DNA from: Escherichia phage Alux-21
Sequence record: PQ589898.1
DNA: 42,729 bases
Reading direction: 5' to 3' (one strand)
Shown one piece after another: positions 5,327 to 10,245 of the stretch. Made by a program: the position numbers and the translations under genes. Every line of letters starts with the position of its first letter. Position 1 is the first letter of the stretch. The notes under the pieces were generated by a model, which was not told where the DNA came from, made no database searches, and was given only the letters and a program-made list of their open reading frames with translations.

Positions 5327-5380
5327 ATAGGTATAACCGATTGGCGATATTTACCAAAGGAAATATATAGTTATTTCACC
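5327..5380 (+). promoter_or_regulatory. conserved intergenic element, copy A (promoter/operator-like)
   Basis: ATAGGTATAACCGATTGGCGATATTTACCAAAGGAAATATATAGTTATTTCACC; about 80 percent identical to copy B at 10186-10245; contains near-palindrome ATATTTACC-N3-GGAAATAT. Confidence 0.4.
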
Positions 5381-5417
5381 GGCACACAGGTGCCCAACAA
5401 CAAAAGAGGAAACACCC

Positions 5418-5696
5418 ATGTATAAATTCGCAAAGCTGTTTGAAGCGCATGGCCGCCAAGTTCTGATCCTTAAAGACACAGACAGCGACGGCGACAACCA
5501 GAAACTGTCAATCATCACCCGCATGGATGACGGTTCTGAAATCAATCTTGGCCCGGTGTTTGAAGGGGGAAACGCAGAAGAAGAACTGGACGCGGCATTT
5601 GACAAGGCTAACCAGGAACTTGCTGACGCGTTCGCCAAACAGCTTGTTGGGTGCAGCACGGCATTTGAAGCCGCAAAGGCGCTGGCAGGAAGATAA
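5418..5696 (+). CDS. hypothetical protein
   Basis: 92-aa ORF with strong SD (AAGAGGAAA) 7 nt upstream of ATG; acidic; followed by GC hairpin at 5704-5719. Confidence 0.55.
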   Translation: MYKFAKLFEAHGRQVLILKDTDSDGDNQKLSIITRMDDGSEINLGPVFEGGNAEEELDAAFDKANQELADAFAKQLVGCSTAFEAAKALAGR

Positions 5697-5738
5697 CAAC
5701 CACGCCCGGTGCGCCGGGCAATTCTCACAGGTGACACC

Positions 5739-6131
5739 ATGAAAAAACTTATCATCGCCGCTTTCATCCTGGCGGCCACCAGCGCAGCAGCACAGGCACG
5801 CGAATGCCTGCCAGGCATGGACCCGGCAAAGGACAACTGCCAGGTGACGGAAGAACAGGAACCGGCACCACAGCCAGAATTGCAGGACGTTGACCAGGTT
5901 TACTACTGCCTGGAACTGCAAAAAATCGCCGTCAAAATCGCTGAACTGCGCGACAAAGGCGCAGGCGAACAGGGCGTGGTCACCCTGCTGGCCAACAACA
6001 ACCAGAACCGCATCATTTGGGTGGCGCGCCAGGTGTTCTGGCCGCAATCGGCAAGCCTTCGCCCTGAACAAGTTGGCCTGCGTGTGTGGATGCGCTGCAA
6101 TTCTGGTGAATATCCGGGGGCCGTCAAATGA
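5739..6131 (+). CDS. exported protein with N-terminal signal peptide
   Basis: MKKLIIAAFILAATSAAAQA signal peptide; SD AGGTGA upstream of ATG 5739 (ORF track start 5709 is a GTG inside the preceding hairpin); stop overlaps next start (ATGA). Confidence 0.55.
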   Translation: MKKLIIAAFILAATSAAAQARECLPGMDPAKDNCQVTEEQEPAPQPELQDVDQVYYCLELQKIAVKIAELRDKGAGEQGVVTLLANNNQNRIIWVARQVFWPQSASLRPEQVGLRVWMRCNSGEYPGAVK

Positions 6132-6235
6132 AACTGATGCTGCGTGGTATCCTGGCGATGCTGAAAGATGAATTATTCTGGTTGCTGGTGGTGCTGGCTG
6201 CCTGCGCTTACCTGGTGTGGGTTATCTATGGCTAA
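6128..6235 (+). CDS. small hydrophobic membrane peptide (35 aa)
   Basis: MKLMLRGILAMLKDELFWLLVVLAACAYLVWVIYG; ATG overlaps upstream stop (ATGA) and its stop overlaps the downstream start; below the 60-aa ORF track cutoff. Confidence 0.35.
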   Translation: MKLMLRGILAMLKDELFWLLVVLAACAYLVWVIYG

Positions 6236-6638
6236 CAAAGAACACGCGTTGCAGAACGCAATCCGCAACGCCCTGGCAGGCCGCTGCCTGCTTTTCCGGG
6301 CCAACGTGGGCAAGGCGTACACCAGCAATGACGTGGTGAAGGTGCCACGCCAGATGCCGGTTGTGATGGGGCCGCGTGACGTGCTGCTGAAAAACGCCAG
6401 GCCGTTTGACACCGGGCTGCCGCCAGGGTTTTCCGACCTGTTCGGAATGGTCAGCGTGGAAATCACGCCTGACATGGTGGGGCAGAAAGTGGCCATCTTC
6501 ACCGGCCTGGAAGTCAAAGACGGTGCCCGCGTGTCACCGTTGCAGCGCAACTTCATCAACGCGGTGAATGATAACGGGGGCCGCGCCGGTGTTGTGCGGT
6601 CAGTGGATGACGCTGAAAAACTGGTGTTCGGAAAATGA
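6228..6638 (+). CDS. VRR-NUC domain nuclease
   Basis: NAIRNAL...LLFRANVGKA...GLPPGFSDLFG...AIFTGLEVKDG...GGRAGVVRSVDDAEKL pattern of VRR-NUC family; start taken at ATG 6228 (track ORF starts at 6168). Confidence 0.6.
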   Translation: MANKEHALQNAIRNALAGRCLLFRANVGKAYTSNDVVKVPRQMPVVMGPRDVLLKNARPFDTGLPPGFSDLFGMVSVEITPDMVGQKVAIFTGLEVKDGARVSPLQRNFINAVNDNGGRAGVVRSVDDAEKLVFGK

Positions 6639-7828: not shown

Positions 7829-7840
7829 AATCGGGGTTCT

Positions 7841-10150
7841 ATGAGTGCACAACAAAACTATAAGGATTTGACCGAACAGGAAATTGCAGAAGCACTTTCC
7901 TACATCGACGCCGGTTGCGACCGTGAAACATGGGTGCGCATGGCGATGGCGGTCAAATCGGAATTAGGCGACGGCGGTTTCACCGTCTGGAATGACTGGT
8001 CACGCCAGTCTGACAAGTACAACAGCAAAGACGCACGCGACACCTGGAAATCAGTGAAGCGTCACGGCGGCATCGGCATTGGCACCCTGATTGGCGAGGC
8101 GCAACAGTTCGGGTTCTCCCTGAACGACGCGGAACGCACGCCACTGTCAGCGGAAGAAATCGAAGCACGCAAACGCAAGCGCGAAGCCGAAGAAAAGGCA
8201 GAGCAGCAGCGCCGTGCCGAACGTATGGCGCAGGCAGCCGAGCAGGCGCGCAACATATGGGAATCAGCCACCGAACTGGAAGGCGATGAACACCCCTATT
8301 TGCAGCGCAAGCAGGTGCAGGCGTTTGGTCTGCGCGTTGGGCGGTTCTGGACCGAAAAGCGCAGCATTGATGGCGCGCTGCTGGTTCCTGTTCGCAACAT
8401 TGACGGGCAGATCACCAGTTTGCAGGCAATCTTCCCGAACGAAAACCCACAGCTAGGGCGTGACCGTGATTATTTGCCTGGCGGCCAGAAGCGCGGATGC
8501 TTCCACGTCATAGGCGGCAAGCCGACTGGCGCAAACCCGGTTATTGTCATCTGTGAAGGTTATTCAACCGGCGCGTCAATCCACCAGGCAACGGGCTACT
8601 GCGTTGTAGTGGCGTTTGATGCCGGTAACGTGCCGACCGTGGCCAAGCTGATGCGCCAGCAGTTCGGACGCGCAACAATTGTTGTGGCAGCCGATAACGA
8701 CCAGTGGCACGAAGATGGCAAGCAGAATGATGGCGTTCACTACGCGCGCCAGGCCGCAACTACATGCGGTGGCCTGCTGGTGGTTCCGAAGTTCGCCGCA
8801 CTGAGCGATAAGCCGACCGACTTCAACGACCTGCACAACCTGCAAGGGCTGGCAGAAGTTAAGCGCCAGATTAACGCCGCGATACCTGAACCGGCAAATG
8901 ACAACTTTCTGCCGCTGGATGCCACGGTCAACCCGTTCATGTACCCGCACATGAGCCACCAGCAAAAGCCGTTAAGCACCTGGGAAAACCTGGAATGGCT
9001 GCTGGACCAGTACGGCATCACGGCGCGTTATAACGAAATCAGCAAAGATGTGGTGGTGACCATTCCAGGGCGTGACTATGGCGTTGACGCTTCGGCCAAC
9101 TGTTCCCTGGCGGAAGTTTCCAGCCTGTGTGCCCGCAACGGTATGCCAAAAGGTGACGTGGGCGATTACATCAAACTGATTGGCGTGGCGAACCGTTACA
9201 ACCCGGCTGCTGAATTCATCACGTCACGGCCCTGGGATGGCGTCAGCCGCATTTATGACCTGGTTGACACCCTGACCACCCCGCAAGGCTTTGACCGCAG
9301 CCTGGTGCTGATGATGGTGCGCCGCTGGCTGATTTCTGCCGTGGCTGCCGTCATGAAGCCAACCGGGTTCTGGTCCAAAGGCGTCCTGGTGTTACAGGGT
9401 GACCAGTCATTGGGGAAAACGTCCTGGTTTAAAGCACTGCTGCCGCCGACCATGCGCGACCTGGTGAAAGATGGCGCGACCATCGACCCTAGCAACAAAG
9501 ACAGCGTGACCACCGCGATTGGCCACTGGATGGTTGAATTAGGCGAGCTTGACGCGACTTTCCGCAAGGCTGATATAGCCAGGCTGAAATCGTTCATCAG
9601 TTCTGACGTGGACATGCTGCGCCGCCCTTATGACCGGCTTGAATCGAAGTACCAGCGCCGCACGGTGTTTTTTGCGTCAGTGAACCCGAAACACTTCCTG
9701 GCGGATGACACCGGGAACGTTCGCTGGTGGACCATTCCGGTGACCGGCGTGAACTATGCCCACGACATCGACACGCAACAGCTATGGGCCGAAGTGGCGC
9801 AACTGTACCGTGACGGCGAACGCTGGTGGCTGGACCGTGATGAAGAAGCCATGCTGGAAGGCGTCAACAAGGAACACGAATCCATTGACCCGGTAGAGGA
9901 AATGATACTGGCGCGGTATGAGTGGGGAAGCGAACGCATCAGCGCCTACCGCGAACAGACCGCCAGCCAGGTGTTGCAGGAAATCGGATTTGATAAGCCG
10001 AACAAGTCACAGGCCACGCATTGCAGCAACGTGCTGCGCAAGCTGACTGGCCAGGAACCGCGCAAGACGAAAAACGGGCGGTTCTTCAACCTTCCGCCAA
10101 AGGTGTTGCAGCCAGACTACCGGCGACCAGATGAAAATGCACCGTTTTGA
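7841..10150 (+). CDS. DNA primase-helicase (PriCT-2 / Toprim / D5-VirE-like NTPase), P4 alpha-like
   Basis: 769 aa; N-terminal PriCT-2-like segment (ALSYIDAGCDRETWVRMAMAVKSELGDGGFTVWNDWSRQSDKYNSKDARDTWKS), Toprim-like acidic core, C-terminal Walker A GDQSLGKTS. Confidence 0.85.
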   Translation: MSAQQNYKDLTEQEIAEALSYIDAGCDRETWVRMAMAVKSELGDGGFTVWNDWSRQSDKYNSKDARDTWKSVKRHGGIGIGTLIGEAQQFGFSLNDAERTPLSAEEIEARKRKREAEEKAEQQRRAERMAQAAEQARNIWESATELEGDEHPYLQRKQVQAFGLRVGRFWTEKRSIDGALLVPVRNIDGQITSLQAIFPNENPQLGRDRDYLPGGQKRGCFHVIGGKPTGANPVIVICEGYSTGASIHQATGYCVVVAFDAGNVPTVAKLMRQQFGRATIVVAADNDQWHEDGKQNDGVHYARQAATTCGGLLVVPKFAALSDKPTDFNDLHNLQGLAEVKRQINAAIPEPANDNFLPLDATVNPFMYPHMSHQQKPLSTWENLEWLLDQYGITARYNEISKDVVVTIPGRDYGVDASANCSLAEVSSLCARNGMPKGDVGDYIKLIGVANRYNPAAEFITSRPWDGVSRIYDLVDTLTTPQGFDRSLVLMMVRRWLISAVAAVMKPTGFWSKGVLVLQGDQSLGKTSWFKALLPPTMRDLVKDGATIDPSNKDSVTTAIGHWMVELGELDATFRKADIARLKSFISSDVDMLRRPYDRLESKYQRRTVFFASVNPKHFLADDTGNVRWWTIPVTGVNYAHDIDTQQLWAEVAQLYRDGERWWLDRDEEAMLEGVNKEHESIDPVEEMILARYEWGSERISAYREQTASQVLQEIGFDKPNKSQATHCSNVLRKLTGQEPRKTKNGRFFNLPPKVLQPDYRRPDENAPF

Positions 10151-10157
10151 ATAATAA

Positions 10158-10182
10158 CCCGCTTCGGCGGGTTTTGTTTTTA
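10158..10182 (+). terminator. rho-independent terminator after primase
   Basis: CCCGC-TTCG-GCGGG hairpin followed by TTTTGTTTTT. Confidence 0.6.
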
Positions 10183-10185
10183 TTG

Positions 10186-10245
10186 ATAGGTATAAACGAT
10201 TATGTATTTACCAAAGTAAAGGTGTAGTATTTATCACATAGGGCG
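10186..10245 (+). promoter_or_regulatory. conserved intergenic element, copy B (promoter/operator-like)
   Basis: ATAGGTATAAACGATTATGTATTTACCAAAGTAAAGG...TAGTATTTATCAC; similar to copy A at 5327-5380; contains TTTAC-N4-GTAAA inverted repeat. Confidence 0.4.

What the first reader, a model, noticed from the sequence alone, without database searches (positions are those of the whole stretch)
5327..10245. Conserved 50-bp promoter/operator-like element at two intergenic sites after the helicase and primase genes
5327-5380 and 10186-10245 share ATAGGTATAA-CGATT...ATTTACCAAAG...TAGT-ATTT-TCAC with about 80 percent identity. Each lies just downstream of a large replication gene and upstream of a block of small unknown genes. 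Both contain short inverted repeats (ATATTTACC-N3-GGAAATAT; TTTAC-N4-GTAAA), and a weaker relative (ATATTTAC-N5-GGAAAT) sits at 7351-7370 before the small HTH gene. This looks like a shared promoter with a dimeric-regulator operator, possibly the missing immunity or delayed-early control sites.
Basis: seen in the sequence. Interest (0 to 1): 0.45.

Follow-up and report, generated by a model that had tools for sequence, protein, structure and literature searches.

The report
Paired regulated phage promoters with operator
The two look-alike 55-bp stretches are real, anciently conserved phage promoters that each carry a binding site for a small phage regulator, which is ordinary phage gene control; one of them also launches a structured RNA, shared by many unrelated coliphages, for which I found no description.

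Summary
Window 5322-5375 and 10181-10232 align at 43/54 identical positions, with a local score of 47 against 14.2±2.1 in 2000 shuffles.

The window is a Jilinvirus-like E. coli myophage. The element sits at both sites (after the helicase gene and after the primase gene) in all 9 relatives compared. About 30 copies occur in 20 related Pseudomonas, Burkholderia and enterobacterial phage genomes.

Anatomy: an upstream block (GATAG..AAA..ATT), a weak -35 at 18-19 bp, a 14-bp dyad TTTAC-N4-GTAAA, a -10 of form TAnnAT, and an AT-rich start region. The same dyad overlaps the -35 of a canonical promoter in front of the conserved 62-aa Xre/Cro-fold HTH gene (7413-7601).

The half-site changes in concert at all sites of a genome: TTTAA in phage Arya, TTCAC in Burkholderia-type phages.

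Best reading: two paralogous delayed-early sigma-70 promoters, controlled by the autoregulated HTH dimer. They head variable cargo blocks. They are not immunity operators.

By-product: the promoter after the primase gene starts a ~157-nt covariation-supported structured RNA (10237-10393). It is found in 175 phage records, in no E. coli genome and in no Rfam family.

No transcription start, binding or activity was measured.

The parts
5324..5342 (+). Site H, upstream 'block A' (TTAATAGGTATAACCGATT), predicted about -54 to -36
   Evidence: Exact 16-mer shared with site P. The GATAG..AAA..ATT block is conserved in ~30 copies from enterobacterial, Pseudomonas and Burkholderia phages.
5341..5346 (+). 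Site H, weak -35-like TTGGCG, 19 bp from the -10
   Evidence: TTGGnn lies at 18-19 bp in enterobacterial H copies and Pseudomonas copies. It is not found by the 16-18 bp consensus scan.
5350..5363 (+). Site H operator: dyad TTTAC-CAAA-GGAAA (one mismatch)
   Evidence: The orthologous copies in HeidiAbel, KA2-1 and MQ-4 are perfect dyads.
5366..5371 (+). Site H -10 hexamer TATAGT. The start is predicted near A5378, inside the conserved TATTTCA.
   Evidence: Aligned with TAGTAT/TAATAT/TATTAT/TAGAAT of the other copies. The start-region motif (T)CATTTCA is conserved as far as Burkholderia phages.
5381..5394 (+). Short 5' hairpin (GGCAC-ACAG-GTGCC) of the predicted H transcript, followed by a CA-rich linker, a Shine-Dalgarno sequence and ATG 5418
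   Evidence: Read from the sequence. ECOO78 and Arya have GGCAC-AGATG-GTGCC at the same place.
7355..7368 (+). Site 3 operator TTTAC-TTTC-GGAAA. Its left arm is the -35 (TTTACT 7355-7360) of the HTH-gene promoter.
   Evidence: The same arrangement precedes every HTH ortholog examined.
7370..7399 (+). GC hairpin GCGCCC/GGGCGC with the -10 TACTAT (7378-7383) in its loop, then a T-rich tail. Read as RNA from upstream transcripts it looks like a terminator; read as DNA it is the core of the HTH promoter.
   Evidence: The stem covaries: GGTCCT/AGGACC in Arya, GCGCCG/CGGCGC in MQ-4. A -10-like hexamer sits in the loop each time.
7413..7601 (+). Gene for the 62-aa Xre/Cro-fold HTH protein, the proposed operator-binding regulator
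   Evidence: phrog_14341 'transcriptional repressor', E=4.9e-19. AlphaFold2 model with pLDDT 89.5 and four helices. Foldseek best matches are HipB, Aca1 bound to a 14-bp palindrome, Aca10, controller proteins and 434 Cro, at probability 0.96-1.0 but E>0.1. The recognition helix differs between operator classes.
10156..10181 (+). Intrinsic terminator after the primase gene (AACCCGCTTCGGCGGGTT + T run)
   Evidence: Conserved in all relatives directly upstream of the P copy.
10183..10201 (+). Site P, block A (TTGATAGGTATAAACGATT)
10207..10220 (+). Site P operator, perfect dyad TTTAC-CAAA-GTAAA, centred about -23.5
10225..10230 (+). Site P -10 hexamer TAGTAT. The start is predicted at C10237/A10238.
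   Evidence: It occupies the same position as TATAGT of the TTGACA-N16-TATAGT promoter of phage BUCT618, which precedes the homologous RNA.
10237..10393 (+). Structured RNA leader of ~157 nt, a multi-helix junction; the covariance-model hit covers 10237-10400
   Evidence: 191 bits, E=2.8e-50 with model R1, which was built partly from this sequence. 88.5% of cells are paired against 34-44% when partners are slid, and 19 pairs show changes on both sides. 175 phage records match. No Rfam match and no match in E. coli genomes.
10444..10791 (+). First ORF of the P-driven block (115 aa, phrog_13684, function unknown)

Best explanation
The two similar stretches are paralogous copies of one composite, regulated sigma-70 promoter, here called PH (about 5324-5380) and PP (about 10183-10238). 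It is ancestral to this phage group.

Each copy has, in order:
- a conserved A-rich upstream block at about -54 to -36;
- only a weak -35 (TTG/TTA) at a long 18-19 bp spacing;
- a 14-bp dyad operator, TTTAC-N4-GTAAA, filling the spacer (centre about -21 to -25);
- a -10 of the form TAnnAT;
- an AT-rich start region.

A third copy of the operator overlaps the -35 of an otherwise canonical promoter (TTTACT-N17-TACTAT, 7355-7383). That promoter sits in front of the conserved 62-aa Xre/Cro-fold HTH gene (7413-7601).

Inferred mechanism: the HTH protein binds the dyad as a dimer. It represses its own promoter and occludes or tunes PH and PP. The three successive rightward transcription units (5418-7332; 7413-10150; 10237-12048) would then form one small regulon, switched on after the canonical immediate-early promoters at 3625-3896 and then damped. 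This resembles Cro, Aca or controller-protein circuits.

PH and PP head the most variable cargo blocks of these genomes. The same RNA cassette is attached to PP in some relatives and to PH in others. The promoter copies therefore probably also serve as portable junctions for cassette exchange.

Shown: sequence conservation, anatomy, concerted operator change, and the alignment of the -10 with the RNA 5' end.
Inferred: promoter activity, start sites, the identity of the binding protein, and the sign of regulation.
For: 1. The similarity is far above chance.

2. Both copies are present in all 9 Jilinvirus-like genomes. About 30 copies with the same order of parts occur in 20 genomes, including Pseudomonas phage Persinger and Burkholderia phage Mica.

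3. The -10 is anchored by an independent landmark. A homologous RNA module begins 5-8 nt after the -10 in about a dozen distinct promoter contexts. Outside Jilinvirus most of these have clear sigma-70 promoters: TTGACA-16-TATAGT, TTGACT-17-TAATAT, TTGCAA-17-TATAGT, TTGCAT-17-TATCTT.

4. PP directly follows an intrinsic terminator, so a new start is needed for the genes downstream.

5. Dyad hits at <=1 mismatch number 3-5 per 9-20 kb in most loci, against 0.03-0.5 expected from shuffles, and 4 against about 1 in the whole window. One of them lies upstream of the HTH gene in every locus examined.

6. Half-sites change in concert within a genome: TTTAA at 3 of 3 sites in Arya, and TTCAC at 2-4 sites in each of 7 Burkholderia-type contigs.

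7. The HTH recognition helix tracks the operator class. xxQTV(L/R)IW goes with TTTAC, RTVSTVRVW with TTTAA, and xxQTVRVW with TTCAC. Eighteen closer homologs all keep EQTVLIW.

8. The protein models confidently as a four-helix Xre/Cro fold. Its nearest solved structures are dimeric operator binders: HipB, Aca1 on a 14-bp palindrome, controller proteins, 434 Cro.

9. The canonical immediate-early promoters lie elsewhere, at 3675-3923.
Against: There is no experimental evidence of any kind: no start-site map, reporter assay or binding assay.

The consensus scan finds no sigma-70 promoter at either site. At the optimal 17-bp spacing the -35 position reads ATGTAT, AGAACA or TAGCCC. The promoters may therefore be too weak to fire without an activator. 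In that case the dyad-binding protein, or a protein bound to block A, could act positively rather than negatively.

The link between operator class and recognition helix rests on about two independent evolutionary events. It is confounded with phylogeny, so another co-inherited protein could be the binder.

The dyad centre differs by about 5 bp between the HTH promoter (about -28.5) and PH/PP (about -21 to -25). The function of block A is unexplained. The Foldseek E-values for the 62-residue model are all above 0.1.
Confidence: 0.7

Rival explanations
1. PH and PP are activator-dependent 'middle' promoters. The dyad-binding HTH dimer, or a protein bound to block A at about -45, substitutes for the missing -35 contact and switches them on. 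This would resemble restriction-modification controller proteins at low dose, Mu Mor/C, or T4 MotA. The same protein would repress only its own promoter, which is canonical.
For: No usable -35 lies at 16-17 bp in any of ~30 copies. There is no extended -10, and the spacing to the TTG-like hexamer is long at 18-19 bp. Block A is conserved more deeply than the dyad, across hosts from Burkholderia to E. coli, at a position typical of class II or Mor-type activators. The HTH gene's own promoter lacks block A but has a good -35. Controller proteins are among the structural neighbours. The phage also encodes a DksA/TraR-like zinc-finger protein (526-735), and the start regions are AT-rich.
Against: A dyad centred at -21 to -25 lies in the spacer, where bound proteins usually block RNA polymerase. 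The known exception is the MerR family, and no MerR-type protein with a coiled-coil dimerisation helix is present. The 62-aa protein has no obvious activation surface. Block A is not a repeat or a palindrome, and no binding protein can be named for it.
Confidence: 0.2
2. The repeated element is mainly a recombination junction, a conserved module boundary comparable to the promoter-early stem-loop repeats of T4-type phages. It persists because it lets accessory cassettes move between two hot spots; any promoter function is secondary.
For: The blocks downstream of H and P are the most variable parts of the aligned region. Depending on the relative they hold a methyltransferase, EaA, unrelated small ORFs, or the RNA module. 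The RNA module abuts the P copy in the window, HeidiAbel, PT1 and Arya, but the H copy in KA2-1, L018 and MQ-4. The junction is at the 3' edge of the element in each case.
Against: This does not explain the position-specific conservation of a dyad, a -10 and a start region over ~30 copies. It does not explain the concerted half-site changes, or the operator at the non-variable HTH gene promoter. H and P copies group by site across genomes rather than by genome, so there is no frequent homogenising exchange. This reading is compatible with the best explanation as an added role, but not as a replacement for it.
Confidence: 0.07
3. The elements are replication or partition sites, for example origin-like loading sites for the adjacent helicase and primase, or sites for a host DNA-binding protein of the CRP/FNR type, which also use a 5-N4-5 geometry.
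For: They lie next to the helicase and primase genes. They are AT-rich with a dyad. The geometry matches the FNR-type TTGAT-N4-ATCAA (established knowledge, not tested here).
Against: There is a single dyad per site, with no iterons or DnaA boxes. The same dyad sits in a canonical promoter upstream of a regulator gene. In Mica and Persinger copies also occur away from the helicase and primase genes. A host factor common to enterobacteria cannot explain Arya's switch to TTTAA at all three sites while its neighbours keep TTTAC.
Confidence: 0.03

Closest known systems
Phage Cro-type and anti-CRISPR-associated (Aca1) autorepressor circuits
   Same: A small Xre/Cro-fold HTH protein. A ~14-bp palindromic operator inside the core of strong early promoters. 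The regulator also controls its own expression. The controlled promoters head variable accessory genes. Aca1 bound to a 14-bp palindrome and 434 Cro are among the nearest structures to the model.
   Different: There is no detectable sequence homology to Aca or Cro families: only weak generic HTH Pfam hits and no PDB sequence hit. The regulator gene is not in the same operon as the cargo. There are three dispersed single operators, not tandem OR1-3-type arrays. No divergent cI/cro arrangement exists. The cargo is not known to be anti-defence.
Controller (C) proteins of restriction-modification systems (C.AhdI, C.Esp1396I, C.BclI, C.EcoT38IS)
   Same: A ~70-80-aa Xre-fold dimer binds a dyad that overlaps a weak -35 and gives a timed switch in expression. 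C.BclI and C.EcoT38IS appear among the structural matches.
   Different: C proteins use two adjacent operators (OL and OR) at one promoter, giving dose-dependent activation followed by repression. Here there is one dyad per promoter, at three promoters. In some relatives a methyltransferase is cargo at site P, but no endonuclease partner is present.
MerR-type promoters
   Same: A suboptimal 18-19-bp spacer between the -35-like and -10 hexamers, with a dyad operator centred in that spacer.
   Different: No MerR-family regulator is encoded. The HTH_17 protein at 1116-1337 is 73 aa, has no coiled-coil, and scores below the Pfam cut-off. The candidate binder has an Xre/Cro fold.
T4-type promoter-early stem-loop (PeSL) repeats
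   Same: Repeated early-promoter sequences flank small, highly variable ORFs and plausibly mediate cassette shuffling. The resemblance to PeSL is recalled from established knowledge.
   Different: There are only two copies per genome. The element has no stem-loop of the PeSL kind. It carries a protein operator and is conserved across very distant hosts.
For the RNA by-product: cis-acting phage leader RNAs such as the HK022 put antitermination RNAs, and 5' stabiliser stem-loops
   Same: It sits immediately after early promoters, is co-transcribed with whatever genes follow, is independent of the identity of the downstream gene, and is followed by an unstructured CA-rich linker and a ribosome-binding site.
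   Different: It is about 157 nt with at least 7 helices and long invariant junction strings, far more elaborate than the two-hairpin put RNAs or simple stabilisers. No Rfam family matches. Similarity to put was not tested because no model was available.

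Membership tests
Sigma-70 (housekeeping) bacterial promoter | -10 hexamer close to TATAAT, with A at position 2 and T at position 6 | tested here: met
   TATAGT at 5366-5371 and TAGTAT at 10225-10230. All ~30 family copies have a TAnnAT, GAAAAT or GATAAT hexamer with A2 and T6, 0-6 bp after the dyad.
Sigma-70 (housekeeping) bacterial promoter | -35 hexamer close to TTGACA, 16-18 bp upstream of the -10 | tested here: not met
   The consensus scan finds nothing at either site. At 17 bp the hexamers read ATGTAT, AGAACA or TAGCCC. 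Only TTGGnn or TTAnnn lies at 18-19 bp. Site 3, by contrast, meets this feature: TTTACT-N17-TACTAT.
Sigma-70 (housekeeping) bacterial promoter | Transcript 5' end about 7 nt downstream of the -10 | tested here: inconclusive
   Support is indirect. The conserved 5' boundary of the RNA module lies 5-8 nt after the -10 in about a dozen promoter contexts. No transcript data are available.
Operator of a dimeric Xre/Cro-type HTH regulator | Inverted repeat with half-sites about one helical turn apart | tested here: met
   5-N4-5 dyad with half-site centres 9 bp apart. It is perfect at 10207-10220 and has one mismatch at 5350 and at 7355.
Operator of a dimeric Xre/Cro-type HTH regulator | Overlaps the core promoter, including the regulator's own promoter (autoregulation) | tested here: met
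   The dyad overlaps the -35 and spacer upstream of the HTH gene in every locus examined, in 8 annotated relatives and 15 further contigs.
Operator of a dimeric Xre/Cro-type HTH regulator | Operator sequence co-varies with the regulator's recognition helix | tested here: inconclusive
   Three operator classes (TTTAC, TTTAA, TTCAC) match three helix variants. This reflects only about two independent events and is confounded with phylogeny.
Operator of a dimeric Xre/Cro-type HTH regulator | Specific binding by the protein | not testable with these tools
   Needs gel-shift or footprinting assays.
Lambdoid immunity operators (cI/Cro OL, OR) | Tandem operators between divergent repressor and cro genes, bound by the immunity repressor | tested here: not met
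   The window has no cI-like gene. There is no dyad in 3625-3896. The operators are single and dispersed, and are retained in relatives lacking cI.
MerR-type promoter/regulator pair | 19-20-bp spacer with a central dyad, plus a MerR-family regulator | tested here: not met
   The spacer geometry is similar at 18-19 bp. No MerR-family protein is present: only a 73-aa HTH_17 match below the cut-off.
UP element (RNA polymerase alpha C-terminal domain site) | A/T-rich -59 to -38 region close to the AAAWWTWTTTT..AAAA consensus | tested here: inconclusive
   Block A lies at about -54 to -36 and contains GAAAATCAA (Pseudomonas and Burkholderia phages) or GTATAAACGA (this phage). It partly resembles the proximal subsite, judged by eye. 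No scoring model was available.
Any described RNA family (Rfam 15), for the RNA at 10237-10393 | Score at or near a family's gathering threshold | tested here: not met
   The only gathering-level hits in the window are two tRNAs. No hit at E<=10 overlaps 10237-10400. None at E<=5 overlaps the element in five homologous loci.
Structured non-coding RNA (generic), for 10237-10393 | Conserved helices supported by compensatory changes; not a conserved reading frame | tested here: met
   88.5% of cells are paired against 34-44% for slid partners, and 19 pairs show double changes. The distance between conserved flanks is 164, 165, 166, 167 or 170 nt, so no single reading frame is conserved. The single-sequence folding energy is not exceptional (z = 0.79).

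The most novel reading that the evidence does not exclude
The promoter after the primase gene launches a previously undescribed ~157-nt structured RNA class. It has a multi-helix junction with invariant strings GGAGAGG, AGGAUUCCCAACCGUGA, ACACU, AGAACGC and ACCGACGAAG. It has spread horizontally among unrelated virulent enterobacterial phages (Jilinvirus, Drexlerviridae, Dhillonvirus, Sortsnevirus and others). It always forms the very 5' end of an early transcript, whatever gene follows. The most novel reading the evidence allows is that it is not a passive 5' stabiliser. It would instead be a specific functional RNA: a cis-acting device that modifies RNA polymerase or the ribosome, a ligand sensor, or a processed trans-acting host-takeover or anti-defence RNA. 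It would be carried as exchangeable cargo in promoter-headed hot spots governed by an Aca-like regulator.
Probability: 0.35. Interest if true: 0.7.

Novelty: new member of a known kind. Interest (0 to 1): 0.42.

Why it matters
Jilinvirus-like (Iiscvirinae) phages are barely characterised, and their lifestyle is described as enigmatic (PMC11990801).

This analysis gives them a concrete, testable transcription map. It proposes canonical immediate-early promoters, then three operator-bearing promoters governed by one small HTH protein, across hosts from Burkholderia to E. coli. It supplies a natural series of operator/recognition-helix variants (TTTAC, TTTAA, TTCAC) suited to specificity-swap experiments.

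It marks two promoter-headed hot spots where accessory cargo is exchanged, which is useful when searching for host-takeover or anti-defence functions.

It corrects several likely mis-annotations: the 77-aa start of the HTH gene, and small CDSs drawn across the RNA.

The by-product may matter more. It is a widespread, covariation-supported phage RNA with no Rfam family, found in no E. coli genome, and in no paper I could find by sequence search.

Tried and rejected
Chance similarity is rejected.

The simple sigma-70 scan found nothing at either site. I kept the promoter reading only because of the comparative anchor. I looked by eye for minus-strand promoters, for TTGATA as a -35 and for TATAAA in block A as a -10, and none had a partner hexamer at a workable spacing. 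No extended -10 (TGn) is present in any copy. An RNA hairpin role for the dyad is rejected: a 5-bp AU stem, and upstream of the inferred start.

Immunity operators are rejected (see the membership test). A host CRP/FNR-type factor is rejected because of Arya's concerted switch.

For the RNA:
- Rfam at gathering and at permissive thresholds gave nothing.
- A search of 5,426 E. coli genomes gave no match.
- The single-sequence fold is not better than shuffles.
- RNAalifold on the raw MAFFT alignment recovered only part of the structure, because the ends were out of register. A hand-built structure and a covariance-model realignment were needed. P1 and outer P6 of the HK578 group remain misaligned there and were checked by eye.
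- A protein-coding reading is rejected on frame inconsistency.
- Extra collection scans with other conserved strings returned only known members plus chance hits (L033, L065, L067).

Literature searches for the RNA sequence, for Dhillonvirus or Drexlerviridae non-coding RNAs and for phage anti-defence RNAs found nothing relevant. One search call failed on syntax. T5 'Rad' turned out to be a protein.

Full report
**What the window is.** The region 3800-12000 matches Jilinvirus-like myophages at 81-95% identity: Escherichia phages vB_EcoM-ep3, ECOO78, ECO1230-10 and HeidiAbel_Bas97, Salmonella PT1, Klebsiella KA2-1 and Enterobacter Arya. Gene order is the same in all:
- a leftward early operon (exonuclease VIII and others);
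- a 272-bp divergent control region;
- then, rightward, helicase (3897-5315), small ORFs, a Holliday-junction resolvase, a small HTH gene (7413-7601), a DUF7696 gene, primase (7841-10150), more small ORFs, a late activator (12482-12916), and the lysis and structural genes.

The published account of this group calls the phages poorly characterised, with an 'enigmatic' lifestyle (PMC11990801).

- ATAGGTATAAnCGATT occurs only at 5327 and 10186, even allowing three mismatches.
- TATTTACCAAAG occurs exactly at 5348 and 10205.
- Local alignment of the two intergenic segments gives 43/54 identities with 3 gaps. The score is 47, against 14.2±2.1 (maximum 26) in 2000 shuffles. The site-H core has no other comparable match in the window.
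- The dyad TTTAC-N4-GTAAA at <=1 mismatch gives four hits against 0.89 expected. Three of the four are 5350, 7355 and 10207.

**Conservation.** I extracted the intergenic DNA after the helicase gene (site H) and after the primase gene (site P) from the window and eight relatives. The element is present at both places in all nine genomes. Copies group by site across genomes, so the duplication is old.

Using the HTH protein as bait, I fetched 15 more related contigs and the annotated genomes of Pseudomonas phage Persinger and Burkholderia phage Mica. A scan for each genome's own dyad found 3-5 hits per 9-20 kb in most of these loci, against 0.03-0.5 expected from shuffles. About 30 of the hits have the same full architecture. 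In order, that architecture is:
- GATAG-N3-AAA(A/C)-(T/G)CAAT(TGG), here called 'block A';
- a few bases;
- the dyad;
- 0-6 bases;
- a -10-like hexamer that always has A2 and T6 (TAGAAT, GAAAAT, GATAAT, TAGTAT, TATAGT, TAATAT, TATTAT);
- then (T)CATTTCA.

The ep3 P copy (TAGAATTCATCTATCGAAAAC) still closely resembles the Burkholderia form (TAGAATTCATTTCATCGACAAC).

**Why it is a promoter.** A plain consensus scan does not call either site, so the case is comparative.

Directly downstream of site P lies a ~160-nt ORF-free module. It matches 175 phage records from unrelated genera, mostly unannotated. In those phages the module is preceded by sigma-70-like promoters, most of them with a clear -35:
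- BUCT618: TTGACA-16-TATAGT;
- HK578 group: TTGACT-17-TAATAT or TTGACA-18-TATCAT;
- other contigs: TTGCAA-16/17-TATAGT;
- the sortkaff/IME279 group: TTGCAT-17-TATCTT.

In every one of about a dozen distinct promoter contexts, the -10 ends 5-8 nt before the first conserved base of the module. In the Jilinvirus copies the TAnnAT hexamer of the element sits at that same distance. The BUCT618 -10 region (GGTGTATAGTTCAACACATAGGG) is visibly homologous to the window's (GGTGTAGTATTTATCACATAGGG). This places the start of the P transcript at C10237/A10238 and, by alignment, that of the H transcript near A5378.

Site P also follows an intrinsic terminator (10156-10181), so the downstream genes need their own start.

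The Jilinvirus copies lack a -35 at 16-17 bp. Only TTGGnn or TTAnnn lies at 18-19 bp. The canonical immediate-early promoters are elsewhere, at 3675-3923. PH and PP are therefore non-canonical and probably delayed.

**Why the dyad is an operator, and whose.**

First, the third dyad (7355-7368) lies in a canonical promoter, TTTACT-N17-TACTAT, in front of the small HTH gene. The -10 sits in the loop of a GC hairpin that covaries in Arya and MQ-4 and looks like the terminator of the upstream unit. Every HTH ortholog examined (8 annotated relatives and 15 contigs) has a dyad overlapping the -35 of such a promoter, for example TTCACA-N18-TACAAT in Mica.

Second, half-sites change together within a genome. 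Arya has TTTAA-N4-TTAAA at all three sites. Seven Burkholderia-type contigs have TTCAC-N4-GTGAA at 2-4 sites each. The enterobacterial and Pseudomonas phages keep TTTAC. A host factor shared by enterobacteria cannot explain Arya.

Third, the putative recognition helix follows the operator class:
- RTEQTVLIW, RSDQTVRIW and RKPQTVRIW go with TTTAC;
- RTVSTVRVW goes with TTTAA;
- RTAQTVRVW and similar go with TTCAC.

Eighteen closer homologs all keep EQTVLIW.

Fourth, the protein belongs to phrog_14341, 'transcriptional repressor'. It models at pLDDT 89.5 as four helices. Its closest solved folds are dimeric operator binders: HipB, Aca1 on a 14-bp palindrome, Aca10, controller proteins, 434 Cro and P2 C, with TM 0.6-0.75 and probability 0.96-1.0 but E>0.1.

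I therefore propose that the 62-aa protein is the autoregulated binder of all three operators. The caveats are real. The covariation amounts to about two independent events and is confounded with phylogeny. The sign of regulation is not known. The dyad centre (about -21 to -25 at PH and PP, about -28.5 at the HTH promoter) favours occlusion. The weak -35 and the deeply conserved block A at about -45 keep an activator model alive.

**What it is not.** It is not an immunity operator. The window has no cI-like gene, the divergent control region has no dyad, and relatives with and without cI keep the sites. It is not MerR-type despite the long spacer, because no MerR protein is encoded. It is not an origin, since each site has a single dyad and no iterons.

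**Cargo and mobility.** The genes downstream of PH and PP differ widely among relatives: a DNA methyltransferase in ep3 and ECOO78, EaA in PT1, and unrelated small ORFs elsewhere. The RNA module follows PP in the window, HeidiAbel, PT1 and Arya. It follows PH in KA2-1, L018 and MQ-4, and is absent from ep3, ECOO78 and ECO1230-10. The two promoter copies thus behave as hot spots, and probably as junctions, for cassette exchange.

**The RNA by-product.** A 28-sequence alignment, a hand-derived structure and a covariance model recover 38 full-length copies in the fetched loci (37, one more). On the realigned set, 88.5% of cells are paired, against 34-44% with partners slid. Nineteen pairs show changes on both sides, and no shuffle reaches the observed covariation score. 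That alignment is fitted to the model, but the raw MAFFT alignment already gave 83.9% against 35-42%.

Clear swaps include:
- P6: CGCAC/GUGCG, CAUUGG/CCAAUG, CUAUC/GAUAG, CCAGG/CCUGG, CCUGG/CCAGG;
- P7: CAG/CUG, CGA/UCG, AUAU/AUAU;
- P1: GGGCGGCG/CGCCGCCC, GACGGGC/GCCCGUC, GUCGAC/GUCGAC;
- loop changes in the P6 hairpin (GAAA, GCAA, CGAA).

These can be read.

The spacing between conserved flanks varies by non-multiples of three, so the module is not a conserved ORF. The small CDSs annotated over it in HeidiAbel and PT1 are probably artefacts.

It has no Rfam match, no match in 5,426 E. coli genomes, and no paper found by sequence string. It is always followed by a CA-rich linker, a ribosome-binding site and an unrelated gene. 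That argues for a generic leader function, or for a processed stand-alone RNA, rather than a gene-specific riboswitch. Its function is unknown. I rank the options as follows: a cis-acting leader (stability, translation or antitermination) as most likely, then a trans-acting host-takeover or anti-defence RNA or a ligand sensor as the more novel possibilities.

**Verdict.** The element is a new, well-delimited member of a familiar kind, a phage promoter-operator regulon with a small Cro/Aca-like regulator, and is of moderate interest. The attached RNA leader is the more unusual item and deserves its own follow-up.

Noticed in passing
window 10237-10393 (+); homologs e.g. L009 2517-2680, L012 2489-2653, L011 2503-2669: A ~157-nt structured RNA at the 5' end of early transcripts. 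It is found in 175 phage records of unrelated genera, in no E. coli genome and in no Rfam family. Its structure is supported by covariation, and it has long invariant junction strings. Its function is unknown.
   Followed up: partly
window 12841-12866, 17110-17135, 19849-19874, 24151-24176, 31194-31219 (+): Five direct copies of TGACAAACCCCAAGAAGA... At least three (12841, 24151, 31194) lie just upstream of the next late ORF; 17110 is near a gene end; 19849 is inside the large ORF 19298-21343. They are candidate late-promoter or late-activator (phrog_836, 12482-12916) sites.
   Followed up: no
window 7368-7412; L001 5471, L002 5462: The 77-aa version of the HTH gene annotated in ep3 and HeidiAbel starts inside the operator/promoter (ATG at 7368). 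The predicted start near 7390, and the Shine-Dalgarno GAGG at 7401-7404, favour the 62-aa protein starting at 7413.
   Followed up: partly
L001 8386-8622; L003 7740-7946 (minus strand); window ORF 10200-10430 (minus strand): Small CDSs annotated or callable across the RNA leader in HeidiAbel and PT1 are probably artefacts. Conserved blocks fall in different reading frames in different lineages.
   Followed up: partly
window 7370-7399: A GC hairpin with a T-rich tail, terminator-like for the unit 5418-7332, carries the -10 of the next promoter in its loop. The stem covaries in Arya and MQ-4 while a -10-like hexamer is kept in the loop. This is a compact overlap of a terminator and a promoter.
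   Followed up: partly
window 526-735 (-): A 69-aa zinc-finger protein (CxxC...CxxC), syntenic with genes annotated DksA-like in Persinger and matched to an RNA-polymerase complex entry in Mica. It is possibly a TraR/DksA-type modulator of RNA polymerase, which could matter for promoters with AT-rich start regions such as PH and PP.
   Followed up: no
window 40785-40858 (-) and 42487-42560 (+): Two tRNA genes detected by Rfam (70 and 40.9 bits).
   Followed up: no
window 5381-5417; relatives: Predicted H- and P-type transcripts without the large RNA still begin with a short GC hairpin followed by a CA-rich linker and a Shine-Dalgarno sequence. The design is the same as for the large leader, in miniature.
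   Followed up: no
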